Source: Dehalococcoidia bacterium
GTDB lineage: Bacteria > Chloroflexota > Dehalococcoidia > Plut-88900
Assembly: GCA_965197645.1 (NCBI GenBank)
Contig: OZ240219.1
Location: 608,001 to 672,000, forward strand
Reading direction: 5' to 3'
DNA: 64,000 bases
Translations under genes and position numbers: made by a program
The notes under the pieces: model-generated
The model's input: the letters and a program-made list of their open reading frames with translations, nothing else
Told to the model about the DNA's origin: nothing
Databases searched by the model: none
In this document: piece by piece, positions 22,375 through 49,242 of the stretch
How positions within the stretch are numbered: position 1 is the first letter of the stretch
How the letters are laid out: every line of letters starts with the position of its first letter

Positions 22375-22923
22375 ATGACGCATCGAAGCATCCCTCACAC
22401 ACTGCTCCTCATTCTCGTTTCTTGCAGCGTCGTGGCTATTGCCGCGGTCTCCGGCTGCGGTGACGGCAATGGGATAGAGATCATCCTCCCTTCCCAATCG
22501 ACACCCCAGGAACTGGTGGTCTACATCACCGGCGAAGTGGTCAACCCAGGCGTCTATACCCTCGACCCGACCTCGGACCGCGTTGTCCACGCCATCGAGG
22601 CGGCGGGAGGCTTCACTGGGTCGGCGGACGTAGATGGCATCAACCTGGCAGCGAGGCTGACCGATGGCCAGCACATCAAAGTGCCGGCCGTCGGCGATAG
22701 CCCATCTCCGGCGGAGCAGACCGAGGGTTCGCTGATCGATATCAACACCGCCTCCCCGGAACTGCTGCAGACCCTGACGGGCATCGGCCCGGCCAAGGCC
22801 CACGCCATAATCGACTATCGAGAGGTCCACGGCCCCTTCGCCCGCATCGAAGACATAATCAACGTCCCGGGCATCGGAGAGGCCACCTTCGAGTCGATCA
22901 AGGACCACATAACAGCGAGATGA
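22375..22923 (+). CDS. comEA: Competence DNA receptor ComEA
   Basis: SLBB domain (GEVVNPGVY...INLA) and helix-hairpin-helix repeats (INTAS...GIGPAKA...GIGE). Confidence 0.93.
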   Translation: MTHRSIPHTLLLILVSCSVVAIAAVSGCGDGNGIEIILPSQSTPQELVVYITGEVVNPGVYTLDPTSDRVVHAIEAAGGFTGSADVDGINLAARLTDGQHIKVPAVGDSPSPAEQTEGSLIDINTASPELLQTLTGIGPAKAHAIIDYREVHGPFARIEDIINVPGIGEATFESIKDHITAR

Positions 22924-25388
22924 AGCTGGTCTATCTCAGCGCAGCGTTTCTGCTGGGGGTATTCGCCGCCTCCAGGTTGGAACCGCCAGGCCTTCCCTTC
23001 CTGATCGCCGCCGCAGCCCTGGCACCCGTGCTGTCAGGCCTCATCATAATCCGGAAACGCCCGGCGGCCCTCTGTGCTGCCGCGGCCCTGCTCCTGGCCT
23101 TTGGTCTCGCTCGTGCGGCCAGCGACGTTCCTAGCGAATCCGCACTACACCCGTATATGAATCTACCCCAGACCCAGGTGCGAGGCATCATAGATAGCTA
23201 TCCGGTGCCCCGAGACGGCCTGAGTCAGTTCTTGTTCGACGTGGAAGCGGTGAACATCGACGGCACGTGGGCCGAGGTCTCCGAGTCGGTCCTGGTGAGG
23301 GCCCGCCCCACTCCCGAGCTTGTCGGCATACGAGACCTGCCCTACTTCCGCTATGGCGACTCGTTAAGGCTCACAGGCACACTCGAGACTCCTCCGGTAC
23401 TGGGCGACTTCGACTGGCGGGACCATCTCGCCCAGGAAGGCGTCCACTCGATAATGTTCCGGCCCGAAGTAGTCTACCTGCAGGACGGCCAGGGGTTCCC
23501 GCTGATGACCTTCCTGTTCGACCTGCGAGCCCGTCTAGCTAGGAGCTTAGGCCGGACGCTGCCCGAGCCCCAGGCCTCACTCTCTCAAGCTATGGCGTTG
23601 GGACTTCGCGGCACCCTCCCCACCGAGCTGAAAGAGGACCTGGCCCGTACCGGCACCACTCACATGGTGGCTATTTCGGGACTGCACGTAGGGACTGTGG
23701 TTGGCATGGCCGGCCTGCTGCCCCGATTCCTCTTCGGCCGTGGCAGAGGCCGGGAGGTGTTCGTAGCCCTTCTGCTGCTGGTCTGGGGCTATGCACTGCT
23801 GACGGGTCTCGCTCCGCCGGTCATGAGGGCGGCGATAATGGGCAGCATCTTCCTATGGGCCACGTACTTGGGCCGCCAGCGAAGCGCCCTGCCCGCGCTG
23901 GCCGCTGCAGCGGCAGTCATGGTACTCATAGACCCGGGATCCCTGGACGAAGTCTCCTTCCAGCTCAGCTTTCTGGCGATGGCAGGCCTGATCTTGCTCG
24001 CTCCCTGGTTCAGGGTCTCCGGTCGTGCTCTCGTATCCAAGTTCCTACCTTCGGAAGGAACTGCCGCCGGCCTGGGAGTCCTGGCCATCGACGCCACAGC
24101 GATATCCCTGGCCGCCATTCTTGCTACCCTACCCGTCATAGCCTTCAACTTCCAGCAGGTAGCCCTGGTCGGTCTGCCCGCCACCCTGGCGATTCTACCC
24201 GTCCTGCCCTTTATCCTCGGCACGTCTCTGCTGGTGGGTTTCGCTGGGCTGGTCTCATCGGCACTGGCCCAGGGCCTGGGCTGGGCGGCCTGGCCGTGGC
24301 TCACCTATATGGCCGGCGCCGTCGAGCTTTTCGCCTGGGCCCCTTCCCTGTCCGTCGATGCCGGTCCCGCCTCCACCTATCTGGTATGGGCCTACTACGG
24401 GGTCGCCGCGGCCCTGCTCTGGCTGCTGAACAGAAAGCGGGGTAGATGGGTCTCAAGGCTCGGCGACCTCGACTCCGCCTGGCCTGACGTCCCTCACTCC
24501 GTGTCCGGAAGCGGGGGAGCATGGAGGTTCGCTCCCCTCTTGCTGGTCATCCCTGTGATTCTGTTCGTATCCGTCGGCCTCAGCCAACCCTCAGACCGGC
24601 TCAGGGTCACCTTTCTGGACGTTGGGCAAGGAGACGCCATCCTGGTGCAGTCGCCATCGCAAAAGACGGTCCTGATCGATGGCGGCCCCTCGCCCGCAGT
24701 CCTGGCTCTGGAGATCGGCCAGCGGCTGCCGCCGTGGGAGCGAGAGCTGGATCTCGTCATGCTCACCCACCCCGACCGGGATCACCTGGCGGGCCTCCTG
24801 GAGCTGATCACTCGATACGATGTCGGTCTGGTCGTCCAGTGTGGCCTCGACTGTGCCACCGAAGGCAATCTTTCTGGATACAGGTCCTGGCGAACCGTGC
24901 TGGATAGAGAGGGAATCGGGGTCATCGAGGCGGAGAGGGACCAGATCATCGACCTGAAGGACGGGGCCCGCATACTAGTCCTCCACCCACCACCCAATCC
25001 TCTCAGCGGCACCGAGTCCGATGGCAACAACAACTCGGTAGTCCTGCTTCTCAGCTACGGCGACGTGGCCTTCCTGCTACCCGGTGACATCGAGGCCTTC
25101 GCCGAGAGGTTCCTGGTCCGCTACAGCGACGACCTCTCGGCAACGGTGCTCAAGGTCCCTCACCACGGTAGTCGCACCTCCACAACCGCTGAGTTTCTGG
25201 CCGCGGTGGACCCCCTCTTTGCTGTGATCTCAGCCGGAGCCGACAATCCCTTCGGGCACCCCCACCCCCAGACTCTGGCGACTCTAAGGGAGCAGCTTTC
25301 CGATGCCCAGATTCTCCTCACCTCCGAACACGGCTCCATCCGGTTTGAGACCGACGGCTCCAGCCTCTGGCTATCCAACGAACGATAG
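22920..25388 (+). CDS. comEC: DNA uptake channel ComEC/Rec2
   Basis: HMVAISGLHV, SFQLSF, MBL domain DVGQGD, THPDRDH, KVPHHGS. Confidence 0.96.
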   Translation: MKLVYLSAAFLLGVFAASRLEPPGLPFLIAAAALAPVLSGLIIIRKRPAALCAAAALLLAFGLARAASDVPSESALHPYMNLPQTQVRGIIDSYPVPRDGLSQFLFDVEAVNIDGTWAEVSESVLVRARPTPELVGIRDLPYFRYGDSLRLTGTLETPPVLGDFDWRDHLAQEGVHSIMFRPEVVYLQDGQGFPLMTFLFDLRARLARSLGRTLPEPQASLSQAMALGLRGTLPTELKEDLARTGTTHMVAISGLHVGTVVGMAGLLPRFLFGRGRGREVFVALLLLVWGYALLTGLAPPVMRAAIMGSIFLWATYLGRQRSALPALAAAAAVMVLIDPGSLDEVSFQLSFLAMAGLILLAPWFRVSGRALVSKFLPSEGTAAGLGVLAIDATAISLAAILATLPVIAFNFQQVALVGLPATLAILPVLPFILGTSLLVGFAGLVSSALAQGLGWAAWPWLTYMAGAVELFAWAPSLSVDAGPASTYLVWAYYGVAAALLWLLNRKRGRWVSRLGDLDSAWPDVPHSVSGSGGAWRFAPLLLVIPVILFVSVGLSQPSDRLRVTFLDVGQGDAILVQSPSQKTVLIDGGPSPAVLALEIGQRLPPWERELDLVMLTHPDRDHLAGLLELITRYDVGLVVQCGLDCATEGNLSGYRSWRTVLDREGIGVIEAERDQIIDLKDGARILVLHPPPNPLSGTESDGNNNSVVLLLSYGDVAFLLPGDIEAFAERFLVRYSDDLSATVLKVPHHGSRTSTTAEFLAAVDPLFAVISAGADNPFGHPHPQTLATLREQLSDAQILLTSEHGSIRFETDGSSLWLSNER

Positions 25389-25445
25389 CGGCTAGGTGGG
25401 GTGTCTACTGATGCATCCGGGGGGAGGAAACGACTCTGCCGGGTT

Positions 25446-25735
25446 AACAGCCAGCCTGGCAGGATTGCCACGCCCCGACTTCGTCGAGCCTCGCAATGAT
25501 AGAGGGGGTCGTTGCGAGCGACGAGCCTGCCCGATGTCCCGCTTTCGGGGAGTCCGGAGGGCTTCCATCTGGCAGGGGATTTGGGGGATGTGCCCCCAAC
25601 TACTAACTCATTCCAAGGCGGGTCGGAGGGAAGAACCACCTGGGGTGGGGTGGGGCGAGACGATACGACTCTCCTGGGTCAACGTCCTGACCGGCTGGAT
25701 TGCCACGCCCCGACTTCGTCGAGCCTCGCAATGAC
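25446..25735 (+). repeat. Mosaic of repeats A-B-A
   Basis: GATTGCCACGCCCCGACTTCGTCGAGCCTCGCAATGA occurs twice, flanking module B (25547-25650). Confidence 0.88.
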
Positions 25736-25744
25736 AAGAGAATG

Positions 25745-25780
25745 AAAAGGGGCGGCCCCGACTAGTCGGGGCCGCCCCTT
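25745..25780 (-). terminator. Intrinsic terminator after the micro-ORF
   Basis: AAGGGGCGGCCCCGAC-ta-GTCGGGGCCGCCCCTT, ending in TTTT on the minus strand. Confidence 0.8.
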
Positions 25781-25802
25781 GAACGTACCTCAGCTATGTC
25801 GC

Positions 25803-25856
25803 CTACCTGTCCTTGGGTTTGTCGTCCGCCTTGGTGCAACCACAGCTGTCACACAT
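25803..25856 (-). CDS. 17-aa CxxCGC micropeptide MCDSCGCTKADDKPKDR (putative metal-binding)
   Basis: Purine-rich RBS AGGAAGGGGAG upstream, extended -10 TGgTATACT, terminator about 20 nt downstream. Confidence 0.7.
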   Translation of the reverse strand: MCDSCGCTKADDKPKDR

Positions 25857-25897
25857 CGCTTCCACTCCCCTTCCTAGGTAATCTGGACTAACCATAA

Positions 25898-25924
25898 AGT
25901 ATACCAACCGGCCGGTAAACTCAA
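25898..25924 (-). promoter_or_regulatory. Extended -10 promoter of the micropeptide
   Basis: TGgTATACT; TTGAGT lies 15 bp upstream (suboptimal spacing). Confidence 0.55.
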
Positions 25925-25961
25925 CCTTCGGTTAAGGAAACTGTTCGATACCGGTTTCGAC

Positions 25962-26062
25962 CCTCCCCCTGACCCCCTCCCTAGCCAGGGAGAGGGAAGA
26001 TGTTAATTCTGGGGGATACCCCCTGACCCCCAACAAAGGGGCTTCGCCCCTCTGGACTCCCC
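25962..26062 (-). repeat. Palindromic repeat, module C variant
   Basis: Reverse complement reads GGGGAGTCCAGAGGGGCGAAGCCCCTTTG...; similar to 13909-14025. Confidence 0.75.
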
Positions 26063-26135
26063 TATCAAGTCGAGTCGTCACACACCCTCGGATTAGCCAA
26101 GCGGGCAGTTCGCGGTATGCCGCTGAGCTCGTTCT

Positions 26136-27242
26136 TCAGTCCTGAAATATGTCCAGAGGCAGGAAGGCCGACACCACCACGTTCGGCAGGTCCACAACCT
26201 CGCTCAACTTCAAGTCCACCGCCACGCTGCAGATCACATACGCCTGCTCCCGGGACCAGCCCCTGTCCACCAGCACGTCGATCATGTTCACCAGCGCCTG
26301 ACGGGCCGCCAGGGTCACGTTCTCCGACTCGTTTCTACCGCCTCGAATCGGCATGCCGGTGGTTGCCAGGAACCGCTTGGGCGCCGCCATCTCCGGCGAG
26401 ATGAAGTAATCGTCCGCCTCGAACATGGGAAACCGGACTCCCTTTCGCTCGGCTTCTCCCCCTCGAACGCTGAACCGCACCGTCGGCGTGGCCGACATCT
26501 CCACCGCCGTACCGCAGCACTCGCTGTCTCCCTGGGCGAAGTGTCCATCTCCCACCGAAAACAGGGCCCCTTCGACGAACACGGGGCACAGCAATCGTGT
26601 GCCGGCGGTCAGATGTTTGATGTCCAGGTTCCCACCGTTCTCGCGGGGCGGCATGGTGCGCAGCCCCTCATTGGCGACAGGCCCTGTCGAGGGCACGGCC
26701 CCGGCCGGGTCGGGAGGCAGTGCGATCTCACCCCGCTCCTCCGTTTCCCTCTCCCTTCTGGTCGCCTCCTCCAGCAGCTCCCTGGAAGGTGCCACGCCTA
26801 TCGTGCCCATGAACGAACCGTTGGGCACTCTCACGCCGGGCAGGTCCGGTGACGTGGCGTATTGACCATCGATGTCCCACTTGACCAGGAAGGGCTCCAG
26901 GTAGAGGTCGCGCAGGAACCCGAAGGAGGGCAATATGCTGGTGAACCCCCAACGGGCCGGCTCGACGTGCCTTATCTCGATCTCCAGCAGATCGCCGGGC
27001 CGGGCGCCCTTCACATAGACGGGACCCGTAAGGGGGTGCACCACCCCTCGGTCGATGCCGTTCAGGTTCGCAGCTGTGGAATCGGGGCCTATCTGGCCGT
27101 CCAACGCGTCCCGGCACTGGAGGGCCGCCTCTTCCCCCTGCTCCACCTCCACCACAGGCGTGACGTCCGGGTGCCAGCGGTTGTGCCCCTTGTCCGGCTC
27201 ATCGGCGGCCTTCTTGGCCAGGTCCATCTCGATGGTCTTCAT
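26136..27242 (-). CDS. Acetamidase/formamidase family protein
   Basis: HNRWHPD, HPLTGP, PRENGGNLD, GDGHFAQGD.E. Confidence 0.93.
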   Translation of the reverse strand: MKTIEMDLAKKAADEPDKGHNRWHPDVTPVVEVEQGEEAALQCRDALDGQIGPDSTAANLNGIDRGVVHPLTGPVYVKGARPGDLLEIEIRHVEPARWGFTSILPSFGFLRDLYLEPFLVKWDIDGQYATSPDLPGVRVPNGSFMGTIGVAPSRELLEEATRRERETEERGEIALPPDPAGAVPSTGPVANEGLRTMPPRENGGNLDIKHLTAGTRLLCPVFVEGALFSVGDGHFAQGDSECCGTAVEMSATPTVRFSVRGGEAERKGVRFPMFEADDYFISPEMAAPKRFLATTGMPIRGGRNESENVTLAARQALVNMIDVLVDRGWSREQAYVICSVAVDLKLSEVVDLPNVVVSAFLPLDIFQD

Positions 27243-27309
27243 GCATTCCTCCATTCAGGAGATAACGGGAGCGTTCTCCAACCTTCGCACCGGACCCGTC
27301 CGATCCTCG

Positions 27310-48492: not shown

Positions 48493-49242
48493 CTAGAAGG
48501 GGATCAGGGCCGTCCCCAGGGCGATATCGGACATCAGAGCGAAGCCGAAGGCGACGCTGAACATCCCTGCGACGCCCGCCACGGCGGAGTTAATCCTCTT
48601 GAAACCGGCTCCGAGGGCGAAGGGCACTCCCAGAACGAGGGTGATGACCCCCATGGACAGAATGGTGCCGACGCCGAACATGAGAATGTAGCCCAGGCCC
48701 ACCCAGAAGGAGGAGATCTTGGGCAGCAGGAGCAGCATTACGGCGGCGCTGCCGGCTAGGCCGTGGACGAGACCTATCACATAGGACTTGGTGCGGAAGA
48801 AGGGCTTGCCCGGACTGAAAAACCCGTGAGGCGACTCCACCTCGGGTGCGTCGGTTCGATCGTGGGTGGCGTGGATGTGAACGTGGGGACCGCTATCGTG
48901 GCTGTGTTTGTGCACGTGGAGACGTCCCCGGCGCAGATTCCAGAACACCTGGGCGCCGAGGAATACCAGCATAATAGCCACGCCGAACTCGAACAGCGGG
49001 GCGACGGCATCGTACCGGTCCAGTACCGACTCTTTGAACAGGAGGATGATCACGCCCAGCACCAGCAGGGGCGTCGAGTGGCCGAGACCCCATGACCCCC
49101 CGACCCATATGCTCTTCCAGGCGTTACGGTGCTCGCCGGCTATAGTAGAAACGGCGACGACGTGGTCGGCATCGGTGGCGTGCTTCAAGCCCAGTAGGAA
49201 CCCAAGCGCCAGCGCCGCCAGGGCACCCGACTCGATATCCAC
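48493..49242 (-). CDS. His-rich Ni/Co-type (NiCoT/UreH-like) permease
   Basis: GLKHATDADH, WGLGHS, HVHKHSH...HVHIH loop, GLVHGLAGS. Confidence 0.85.
   Translation of the reverse strand: MDIESGALAALALGFLLGLKHATDADHVVAVSTIAGEHRNAWKSIWVGGSWGLGHSTPLLVLGVIILLFKESVLDRYDAVAPLFEFGVAIMLVFLGAQVFWNLRRGRLHVHKHSHDSGPHVHIHATHDRTDAPEVESPHGFFSPGKPFFRTKSYVIGLVHGLAGSAAVMLLLLPKISSFWVGLGYILMFGVGTILSMGVITLVLGVPFALGAGFKRINSAVAGVAGMFSVAFGFALMSDIALGTALIPF

What the first reader, a model, noticed from the sequence alone, without database searches (positions are those of the whole stretch)
25745..25924. Stand-alone 17-aa micropeptide gene carrying the HypB-type MCxxCGC metal motif
Seen: hidden between repeat modules on the minus strand is a complete tiny transcription unit. 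It has an extended -10 (TGgTATACT), an RBS (AGGAAGGGGAG), the ORF MCDSCGCTKADDKPKDR* at 25803-25856 and a strong terminator. Established: N-terminal CxxCGC (E. coli MCTTCGC) is the high-affinity Ni(II) site of HypB, using three Cys and the N-terminal amine. Inference: a minimal free metal-binding or buffering peptide (Ni/Zn/Cu), too short for gene callers. No hydrogenase genes or hypB GTPase sequence are adjacent.
Basis: partly seen in the sequence, partly recalled or inferred. Interest (0 to 1): 0.78.

Follow-up and report, generated by a model that had tools for sequence, protein, structure and literature searches.

The report
Tiny gene with HypB-type cysteine head
A 17-codon gene with its own start signals and terminator encodes a peptide that begins with the three-cysteine nickel-binding tip of the hydrogenase helper HypB, in a bacterium without HypB or hydrogenase; similar unannotated mini-genes occur in other bacteria, archaea and phages, and their job is untested.

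Summary
MCDSCGCTKADDKPKDR* lies at 25856-25803 (-), with a GGGGAG ribosome-binding site 8 nt upstream, TGgTATACT further up and a perfect 17+17 hairpin plus T-run 22 nt after the stop. It is single-copy between dispersed repeats. The motif alone is not significant (about one chance hit per genome), but its conjunction with these signals is far beyond chance.

It is not a decayed hypB. The genome shows no HypB, HypA, [NiFe]-hydrogenase or UreG above cut-off. The 11 other genomes of the order lack the ORF. Contigs from three other sequencing runs carry the unit with one change in 214 nt, outside the ORF.

Two look-alikes occur in other Dehalococcoidia families, one fused to a SEC-C motif. MCxxCGC micro-ORFs with Lys/Pro-rich tails, ribosome-binding sites and terminators turn up in many phyla and viral contigs. 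No Pfam or NCBIfam model covers them, and my searches found no paper on them. This scan noted the same family before on other DNA.

Best reading (0.45): a real micro-gene for a free metal-binding peptide. Metal binding rests on analogy only, and no RNA data exist. The tail resemblance to the look-alikes is largely compositional (shuffle p = 0.11).

The parts
25919..25924 (-). Weak -35-like hexamer TTGAGT, 15 nt before the -10 hexamer
   Evidence: Read. Not listed by the consensus scan, which needs a 16-18 nt spacer.
25898..25906 (-). Extended -10 box TGgTATACT (inferred promoter). The inferred transcript start is near 25891-25889.
   Evidence: TGnTAYAMT occurs only 174 times on both strands of the genome. 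The identical box stands before the micro-ORF of L117.
25865..25870 (-). Shine-Dalgarno GGGGAG, 8 nt before the ATG
   Evidence: A 4-mer SD is found at 10.5% of all ATGs (5-mer 6.0%) against 35.8% of the first ATGs of 1625 long ORFs.
25803..25856 (-). Micro-ORF of 17 codons plus TAG: MCDSCGCTKADDKPKDR*
   Evidence: It is the only CxxCGC of 17 in all six frames of the genome that follows a Met, and it has an SD. There was no change in the ORF in contigs of runs X3, X5 and X6.
25737..25780 (-). Intrinsic terminator: 17+17 nt perfect hairpin (25780-25747) and T-run. It acts on the minus strand only.
   Evidence: It is one of only 120 terminator-like sites in the genome by my script.
25389..25746 (.). 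Dispersed repeat modules downstream of the unit
   Evidence: 63, 71 and 72 BLAST hits in the genome for three segments. An 81-nt direct repeat pair was reported.
25931..26135 (.). Dispersed repeat module between the fmdA stop and the unit. The 54-nt unit 25965-26018 is absent from the contigs of X3, X5 and X6.
   Evidence: 22 BLAST hits, repeat D2, and contig pieces that join 25964 to 26019.
26136..27254 (-). Upstream neighbour on the same strand: FmdA/AmdA formamidase/acetamidase. It is the last gene of a run M24/creatinase-like, cyclase-like, FmdA. This is context, not shown to be functionally linked.
   Evidence: Pfam PF03069, 373 bits.

Best explanation
A genuine, independently transcribed micro-gene. 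A transcript of about 150 nt would run from the TGgTATACT promoter to the hairpin terminator. It is translated from the SD-ATG into a 17-residue peptide. Methionine aminopeptidase would remove Met1, because Cys is a small second residue (established rule, recalled). That leaves CDSCGCTKADDKPKDR, with a free alpha-amine on the first Cys.

As in the N-terminal tip of HypB, that amine and the three thiolates (Cys2, Cys5, Cys7) would form a high-affinity site for Ni(II), or for Zn(II) or Cu(I). The short, charged, net-neutral tail keeps the peptide soluble. The peptide would act as a free cytosolic metal-binding, buffering or hand-off peptide, independent of hydrogenase maturation.

Shown here: the anatomy, its improbability by chance, single-copy status, absence of hypB, and the existence of look-alikes and of a wide set of similar micro-ORFs. 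Inferred: transcription, translation, Met removal, metal binding and the physiological role.
For: - Anatomy.
- Joint rarity of the SD, -10 box and terminator.
- SD use by real genes: 35.8% of first ATGs of long ORFs against 10.5% of all ATGs.
- Uniqueness: it is the only CxxCGC of 17 in six frames that follows a Met. Of 46 relaxed-head short ORFs in the genome, 7 have an SD, and only this one has a hydrophilic Lys/Asp tail.
- No decayed hypB: the six-frame hypB HMM finds only a 27.7-bit hit 2 Mb away.
- Look-alike in G038: MCNACGCSAKAEPQKPKPPKDRQ*, with RBS aaggaggtgaaagcc, 25 nt after the preceding gene, with a hairpin behind it.
- Look-alike in G288: MCEACGCMAKEAPKPDD fused to a SEC-C motif, with RBS gaaggggagtgaatccg.
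- Codon variation: the Cys and Gly codons differ synonymously among the three sequences (TGT/TGC, GGT/GGC).
Five of them show a hairpin plus T-run that I read by eye. The SD-less short ORFs of the same sample mostly have junk-like tails.
- Viral sample: of 118 loci, 67 complete ORFs of 45 aa or fewer were found, many in conserved Lys-rich sub-families.
- Conservation: contigs of X3, X5 and X6 carry 25751-25964 with 1 change (25794, outside the ORF), against 23/1179 in fmdA and 50/692 at the comEC end.
- Chemistry of the motif: PMC12284835 passages.
Against: - No RNA, ribosome or peptide evidence exists.
- The ORF was not found in 11 of 11 other genomes of the same order, whether by DNA search, by pattern, or next to their fmdA orthologues.
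- Only 2 look-alikes turned up among 400 other genomes of the class. Fifty-two rows were not listed, and the HMM search missed the window's own ORF, so it is lossy.
- The metagenome scan for the KPK...KDR tail found none (0 of 4 hits).
- Tail similarity to G038 is not significant against composition-preserving shuffles (p = 0.11; 0.002 against random 16-mers before correction for about 100 sites).
- Conservation of the unit is not significantly better than that of fmdA (Fisher p = 0.16). X3, X5 and X6 share the same variants, so they give one comparison, not three.
- The terminator could simply be that of the fmdA operon.
- The Cys conservation among look-alikes is partly circular, because the search pattern demanded it.
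- The tail here is net neutral (4 Asp, 3 Lys, 1 Arg), unlike the poly-Lys tails of most look-alikes.
Confidence: 0.45

Rival explanations
1. A real translated micro-gene, but the Cys3 head does something other than hold a free metal ion. Options are a thiol/disulfide redox switch, a ligand for a cofactor on a partner protein, or a substrate for modification.
For: Look-alikes sit beside redox genes: AhpC/TSA and a DsbA-like gene right after the G288 ORF, a peroxiredoxin, flavodiiron protein and rubredoxin near L079, and rubrerythrin near L102. An earlier scan note (e1-5899408) ties one phage sub-family to a radical SAM enzyme; I did not test that.
Against: No redox or modifying enzyme lies beside the window ORF. 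Contexts of the look-alikes vary widely. The exact N-terminal placement is what the Ni(II) site needs, although my patterns demanded that placement.
Confidence: 0.2
2. Not translated. The ORF is a chance reading frame inside a small RNA or the 3' end of the fmdA operon transcript, and the hairpin is the operon's terminator.
For: About one MCxxCGC per genome is expected by chance (control; 7 control hits in 41 genomes). The ORF is absent from the rest of the order. The 154-nt stretch folds well (z = -3.44), mostly through the terminator. No RNA data are available.
Against: The SD is at ideal spacing, there is a -10 box, and the tail is hydrophilic rather than junk-like. The same architecture recurs in unrelated genomes. 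No Rfam family reaches its gathering score; the best is 22.9 bits against 45.
Confidence: 0.2
3. A Cys-codon leader peptide with an attenuator. Translation speed over three Cys codons in seven decides whether the hairpin terminates transcription.
For: A short ORF rich in one amino acid, followed 22 nt later by a terminator, is the classical layout. The predicted fold pairs the start of the ORF with the stretch behind the stop. In L117, L101 and L114 a gene follows the terminator on the same strand.
Against: In the window nothing follows on the minus strand except repeats and the convergent comEC end. The conserved Lys-rich or Cys-rich tails of the look-alikes are not expected of leader peptides.
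Confidence: 0.07
4. A remnant of a longer gene (hypB, or a SEC-C fusion as in G288) cut off by the repeat elements.
For: G288 carries the same head and linker fused to a SEC-C motif. Repeats flank the unit.
Against: No hypB-like sequence lies downstream or anywhere nearby. No Cys codons follow the stop. A proper terminator follows the stop. G038 ends at the same ...KDR(Q) point.
Confidence: 0.05

Closest known systems
N-terminal extension of HypB, the [NiFe]-hydrogenase nickel metallochaperone (CxxCGC high-affinity site)
   Same: The motif is identical, in the identical place directly after the initiator Met. In E. coli HypB it binds Ni(II) with picomolar affinity through the N-terminal amine and Cys2, Cys5 and Cys7. 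A short peptide copy of the motif was also studied with Zn(II) and Ni(II) (PMC12284835 passages).
   Different: No GTPase domain follows, as the peptide ends after 17 residues. There is no hypB, hypA or [NiFe]-hydrogenase large subunit above cut-off in this genome, and no hypB in G038 or G288. NCBIfam HypB_prefix models are not reached.
MCxxCGC-head micro-proteins with Lys-rich tails. I found no paper on them. I saw them, and four earlier notes of this scan mention them.
   Same: The head, size class (13-45 aa), strong SD and often an own promoter-like box and terminator are shared. The L117 unit even has the same TGgTATACT box.
   Different: The tail here is zwitterionic (4 Asp, 3 Lys, 1 Arg), not poly-Lys. 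Common descent is not shown, since the tail similarity is compositional.
Small SEC-C metal-binding domain proteins (PF02810), such as the 35-aa protein of G288 (NCBI MFQ5924460.1)
   Same: The same head and a similar Lys/Pro/Asp linker, in the same class of bacteria, with a very similar RBS.
   Different: The window peptide stops before any SEC-C motif.
Bacterial metallothioneins (SmtA/BmtA, MymT; recalled, not searched here)
   Same: Small, gene-encoded, cysteine-based metal binders without enzymatic activity.
   Different: Those are about 50 aa with many more Cys and His and a fold of their own. Here there are three Cys in a 7-residue head. The Cys-rich 37- and 44-aa relatives L114 and L181 are closer to that kind.

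Membership tests
HypB (hydrogenase nickel incorporation protein) | CxxCGC directly after the initiator Met | tested here: met
   MCDSCGC at 25856-25836.
HypB (hydrogenase nickel incorporation protein) | G3E GTPase domain (TIGR00073) behind the N-terminal extension | tested here: not met
   Stop after 17 codons. The six-frame HMM search of the genome gives only 27.7 bits (cut-off 121.2) at 2.64 Mb, and nothing in the window.
HypB (hydrogenase nickel incorporation protein) | Match to NCBIfam HypB_prefix_1/2 at the curated cut-off | tested here: inconclusive
   The 34-aa reading gives no hit at E up to 10. The 17-aa peptide is below the tool's 20-aa minimum. Look-alikes reach 13.7-21.1 bits against cut-offs of 30 and 35.
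HypB (hydrogenase nickel incorporation protein) | Company of hyp and [NiFe]-hydrogenase genes | tested here: not met
   PF00374 best hit 19 bits, below cut-off. PF01155 HypA has no match.
HypB (hydrogenase nickel incorporation protein) | Picomolar square-planar Ni(II) binding by the motif | not testable with these tools
   Known for E. coli HypB (PMC12284835 passages). It needs the synthetic peptide.
MCxxCGC-head micro-proteins (undescribed) | ORF of 45 codons or fewer that begins MCxxCGC, with an SD 5-10 nt upstream | tested here: met
MCxxCGC-head micro-proteins (undescribed) | Lys/Arg-rich, net-positive tail | tested here: inconclusive
   4 of 10 tail residues are K or R, but 4 are Asp, so the net charge is about 0. 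Typical members have 35-58% K+R and few acidic residues.
MCxxCGC-head micro-proteins (undescribed) | Sequence relatedness beyond the head | tested here: inconclusive
   Local alignment of the tails to G038 scores 23, with shuffle p = 0.11.
SEC-C motif proteins (PF02810) | SEC-C motif of the CPCGSGKxYKxCC type | tested here: not met
   Absent from the window ORF and from the DNA behind it. Present in G288 at 36.5 bits.
Bacterial metallothioneins | Many Cys/His ligands in about 50 residues forming a metal cluster (feature recalled) | tested here: not met
   Three Cys in 17 residues.
Attenuator leader peptides | Regulated gene on the same strand behind the terminator | tested here: not met
   Only repeats and the convergent comEC end follow.

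The most novel reading that the evidence does not exclude
The HypB nickel head exists as a free, gene-encoded micro-peptide. In this Dehalococcoidia lineage it serves as a minimal nickel (or zinc/copper) carrier. The genome has a urease beta-alpha gene pair and a second, lone urease-alpha-like gene, but no UreG, HypA or HypB was found. The micro-gene sits behind an amidase operon.
Probability: 0.12. Interest if true: 0.85.

Novelty: new variant of a known kind. Interest (0 to 1): 0.6.

Why it matters
If real, this is one of the smallest gene-encoded metal binders: a 16-residue mature peptide carrying a site known only as the tip of a large chaperone, in an organism with no hydrogenase to serve. 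It would show that the HypB head is a portable module.

It would also point to a widespread class of micro-genes that annotation misses. Of 7 look-alike micro-proteins looked up, only one was in a 15-billion-protein collection.

The peptide is also directly testable. A short synthetic peptide can be titrated with metals, and the metal handling of ureases that lack the usual GTPase helpers can be examined.

Tried and rejected
- Rfam over 25000-26600: nothing near a gathering score.
- RNA evidence: no RNA holder was listed among 11 runs, so expression could not be examined.
- The search for homologous proteins: it does not take queries under 40 aa, so the large protein database could not be searched for the peptide.
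- HMM of three peptides over 401 class genomes: it re-found G038 and G288 but missed the window's own ORF, so its negatives are weak. Its marginal hits (E 0.02-0.05) did not carry the motif.
- Metagenome scan for the KPK...KDR tail: 4 hits, namely a long HemN-like ORF, two HypB genes and one 44-aa Cys-rich peptide. There was no close relative.
- Synteny: fmdA orthologues in 11 of 11 family genomes have no CxxCGC ORF beside them.
- DUF3179 lies 1.4 and 2.4 kb from the G288 and G038 ORFs. In this genome it lies at 1.08 and 2.63 Mb, far from the window, so I dropped that link.
- Tail homology test: compositional only.
- ESM Atlas with the G288 protein: only SEC-C clusters at 0.81, a lead-level score.
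- Paralogues in this genome: none.
- Literature: 'CxxCGC' anywhere gave 7 papers by listing. By title, four deal with HypB, SlyD or nickel chaperones and three with other subjects, and none has micro-peptides in its title. Variant spellings were swamped by primer sequences. HypB combined with small-protein terms gave nothing relevant. Supplements were closed, and Figure S2 of PMC12284835 (HypB N-terminal alignments) was not seen.
- Structure and complex prediction: not applicable to 17 residues.

Full report
**What is there.** On the minus strand the window reads TTGAGT (25924-25919), then 15 nt, then TGgTATACT (25906-25898). About 28 nt further on comes GGGGAG (25870-25865), then 8 nt, then ATG TGT GAC AGC TGT GGT TGC ACC AAG GCG GAC GAC AAA CCC AAG GAC AGG TAG (25856-25803). 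After another 22 nt there is a perfect 17+17 nt hairpin (25780-25747) followed by a T-run. The peptide is MCDSCGCTKADDKPKDR.

Two longer in-frame readings exist, from ATG 25895 (30 aa) and TTG 25907 (34 aa). Both starts lie in or just behind the -10 box and have no SD, so the 17-codon reading is the one the signals point to.

The unit lies in the 747-nt gap between the convergent ends of a ComEC gene (+, 22920-25388) and an FmdA/AmdA amidase gene (-, 26136-27254). The amidase gene closes a run of M24/creatinase-like, cyclase-like and FmdA genes.

The gap is otherwise made of dispersed repeats. Three downstream segments give 63, 71 and 72 BLAST hits and the upstream one gives 22, while 25747-25930 is single-copy.

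**Is it more than chance?** The motif alone is not. The genome (3.21 Mb, one contig, 60.8% G+C) holds one MCxxCGC site, and the reversed control pattern also occurs once. In 41 related genomes there were 18 sites against 7 control hits. Of these, 12 sites looked like genes (SD, ORF of 17 aa or more) and 6 like junk.

The conjunction of signals is rare:
- Only 10.5% (4-mer) or 6.0% (5-mer) of all ATGs in this genome have an SD in place, against 35.8% of the first ATGs of 1625 long ORFs.
- My script finds only 120 terminator-like sites and 174 TGnTAYAMT boxes on both strands of the whole genome.
That product is my own arithmetic.
- CxxCGC occurs 17 times in all six frames, and this is the only one that follows a Met. 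The others lie in Arg/Cys/Trp-rich off-frames.
- Of 46 relaxed-head short ORFs, 7 have an SD, and only this one has a hydrophilic tail.

**Not a decayed hypB.** The hypB HMM, read through stops in six frames, finds nothing in the window and only 27.7 bits (cut-off 121.2) at 2.64 Mb. HypA has no match. The [NiFe]-hydrogenase large-subunit model gives 19 bits, below its cut-off. G038 and G288, the two genomes with look-alikes, also lack hypB above cut-off (they are 84% and 91% complete).

**Relatives.**
- The order holds 12 genomes in one family, and the ORF was found only in the window's genome (1 of 12).
- A DNA search in 40 relatives matched only the hairpin.
- The fmdA orthologues of all 11 family members have no CxxCGC ORF beside them.
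- Contigs of three public runs from two other studies (X3, X5, X6) do carry the unit. The piece 25751-25964 has one change (25794, between stop and hairpin). It joins directly to 26019, so one 54-nt repeat unit is missing. The piece 26019-27197 (fmdA) has 23 changes, and the comEC end has 50 in 692 nt.
- The unit is thus at least as conserved as fmdA (Fisher p = 0.16) and much more conserved than the comEC end (p = 2e-5).
- The three runs share the same variants, so this is one comparison. Zero changes in 54 nt is expected 35% of the time at the fmdA rate.

**Look-alikes.** Among 401 genomes of the class, I saw two other short ORFs of this kind in the listed rows (52 rows were not listed).
- The class is Dehalococcoidia. 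This rests on the NCBI name of the G288 protein and on the tool's kinship label.
- G038 has MCNACGCSAKAEPQKPKPPKDRQ*. Its RBS is aaggaggtgaaagcc. It starts 25 nt after a GrdB-like gene, and a hairpin follows it.
- G288 has MCEACGCMAKEAPKPDDPCPCGSGKQYKDCCGMGK*. Its RBS is gaaggggagtgaatccg, and it carries a SEC-C motif (36.5 bits). AhpC/TSA, DsbA-like and DUF3179 genes follow.
- The Cys and Gly codons differ synonymously among the three sequences, but my pattern required those residues.
- The tails look alike (K-A-D/E, K-P-K, K-D-R at the end), yet against composition-preserving shuffles the score is not significant (p = 0.11).
- I therefore call them look-alikes of the same architecture, not proven homologues.

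**A wider set.** Besides many HypB genes it held micro-ORFs such as:
- MCATCGCRKPKPK
- MCSTCGCRKKKPKK
- MCKTCGCKPKKKKPKKK
- MCKSCGCSSKKEAPKKDTKKK
- three peptides of 27, 29 and 30 aa
- the archaeal MCDTCGCKSKKKP (twice)
- a 37-aa Cys-rich one

All but one have an SD, and several have a -10 box and a hairpin plus T-run that I read by eye. L117 carries the same TGgTATACT box. The SD-less short ORFs of the same sample mostly have junk-like tails.

The Lys-Pro in the pattern biases the tails, but the poly-Lys runs and the SDs were not demanded.

No Pfam or NCBIfam model reaches its cut-off on these micro-ORFs; only HypB_prefix_1/2 match, at 13.7-21.1 bits against cut-offs of 30 and 35. Of nine sequences looked up, two were readings of the window ORF and seven were look-alikes. 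Only the 35-aa G288 protein is in the 15-billion-protein collection.

The scan has noted this family before on other DNA (e1-958199, e1-5966726, e1-6042593, e1-5899408). I reached it independently and checked the phage part.

My literature searches found the motif discussed only as part of HypB.

**How it most likely works.** By analogy with HypB (PMC12284835, passages read), the motif binds Ni(II) with picomolar affinity in a square-planar site made of the N-terminal amine and Cys2, Cys5 and Cys7. Short peptide copies of the motif respond to Zn(II) and Ni(II). The site needs the motif at the very N-terminus, which holds here.

I infer that Met1 is removed (a recalled rule for a small second residue). 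The 16-residue peptide would then hold one soft or borderline metal ion, and its net-neutral Lys/Asp tail would only keep it soluble. This differs from the poly-Lys tails elsewhere, which suggest binding to polyanions. None of this chemistry was tested here.

The genome does use, or at least encodes, possible nickel clients. It has a urease beta-alpha pair next to a second FmdA-like gene, and a lone urease-alpha-like gene. I found no UreG, HypA or HypB. A NicO-family match lies 23 kb away in the window, just over its cut-off. This makes a nickel role conceivable, but it is a lead and not evidence.

**Rivals.**
- A different use of the thiols, such as redox, a cofactor or a modification. Redox genes neighbour some look-alikes.
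- A chance ORF in a small RNA or in the fmdA 3' end.
- A Cys-codon attenuator, although nothing lies downstream to regulate.
- A remnant of a longer gene, although no such sequence is downstream and G038 ends at the same point.

**Verdict.** Function remains analogy. It is a new variant of a known kind, namely cysteine-based metal-binding peptides and the HypB tip. It belongs to a broad, unannotated set of micro-genes.

The tallies include one unpublished genome (G243).

Noticed in passing
L027:114-1475 (= G038:C42): The gene just before the G038 micro-ORF is GrdB-like (PF07355, 34.6 bits). It has an in-frame TGA at L027:1203-1205, after which the frame stays open to 1475, so it is probably a selenoprotein.
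   Followed up: partly
L012, L013, L016, L017, L026, L100, L139, L151, L173 and many rows: A family of 53-74-aa proteins starts MC[WLIM]xCGC and then has P-D/E-x-x-H/M-G-D/N-P-x-N-I-T. They have good RBSs and are common in this class and beyond. No Pfam or NCBIfam model reaches its cut-off.
   Followed up: no
L014, L015, L018, L024 (also G400, G085, G052): A second family of about 160 aa also begins MCxxCGC, followed by ..EYI..G. TorD-like proteins with the same head also occur. The head therefore looks modular in this class.
   Followed up: no
L114:1437-1547 and L181:500-558: Cys-rich peptides of 37 and 44 aa (MCQxCGCSPCxKCGKP...) have the same head and look like mini-metallothioneins. L114 lies between a response regulator and an ECF sigma/anti-sigma pair.
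   Followed up: no
window 25389-25746 and 25931-26135: These are dispersed repeat families with 22-72 copies in the genome. One 54-nt unit (25965-26018) is absent from the contigs of runs X3, X5 and X6.
   Followed up: partly
L301:3924-8094 and L302:4602-6317 (own genome, 2.46 and 2.22 Mb): A urease beta and alpha gene pair lies next to an FmdA-like gene and an alpha/beta hydrolase. There is also a second, lone urease-alpha-like gene. No UreG, HypA or HypB was found in the single-contig genome.
   Followed up: partly
window 48823-49218 (-): A NicO-family (nickel/cobalt transporter, PF03824) match at 28.6 bits, just over its cut-off of 27.7, lies 23 kb from the micro-ORF.
   Followed up: no
L043:3511-4101 and L044:6160-7593: A DUF3179 gene lies 1.4 kb and 2.4 kb from the micro-ORFs of G288 and G038. 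In the window's genome the two DUF3179 genes are far away.
   Followed up: partly
window 24800-25491 versus 26019-27197: Against the contigs of X3 and X5, the comEC 3' end differs at about 7% of positions but fmdA at about 2%. That suggests a recombination mosaic across the repeat-filled gap.
   Followed up: no
L030-L042 (genus g4): The fmdA orthologue is tandemly duplicated in all 9 g4 genomes, with two copies 17-600 nt apart. The window's genome has one copy here.
   Followed up: no
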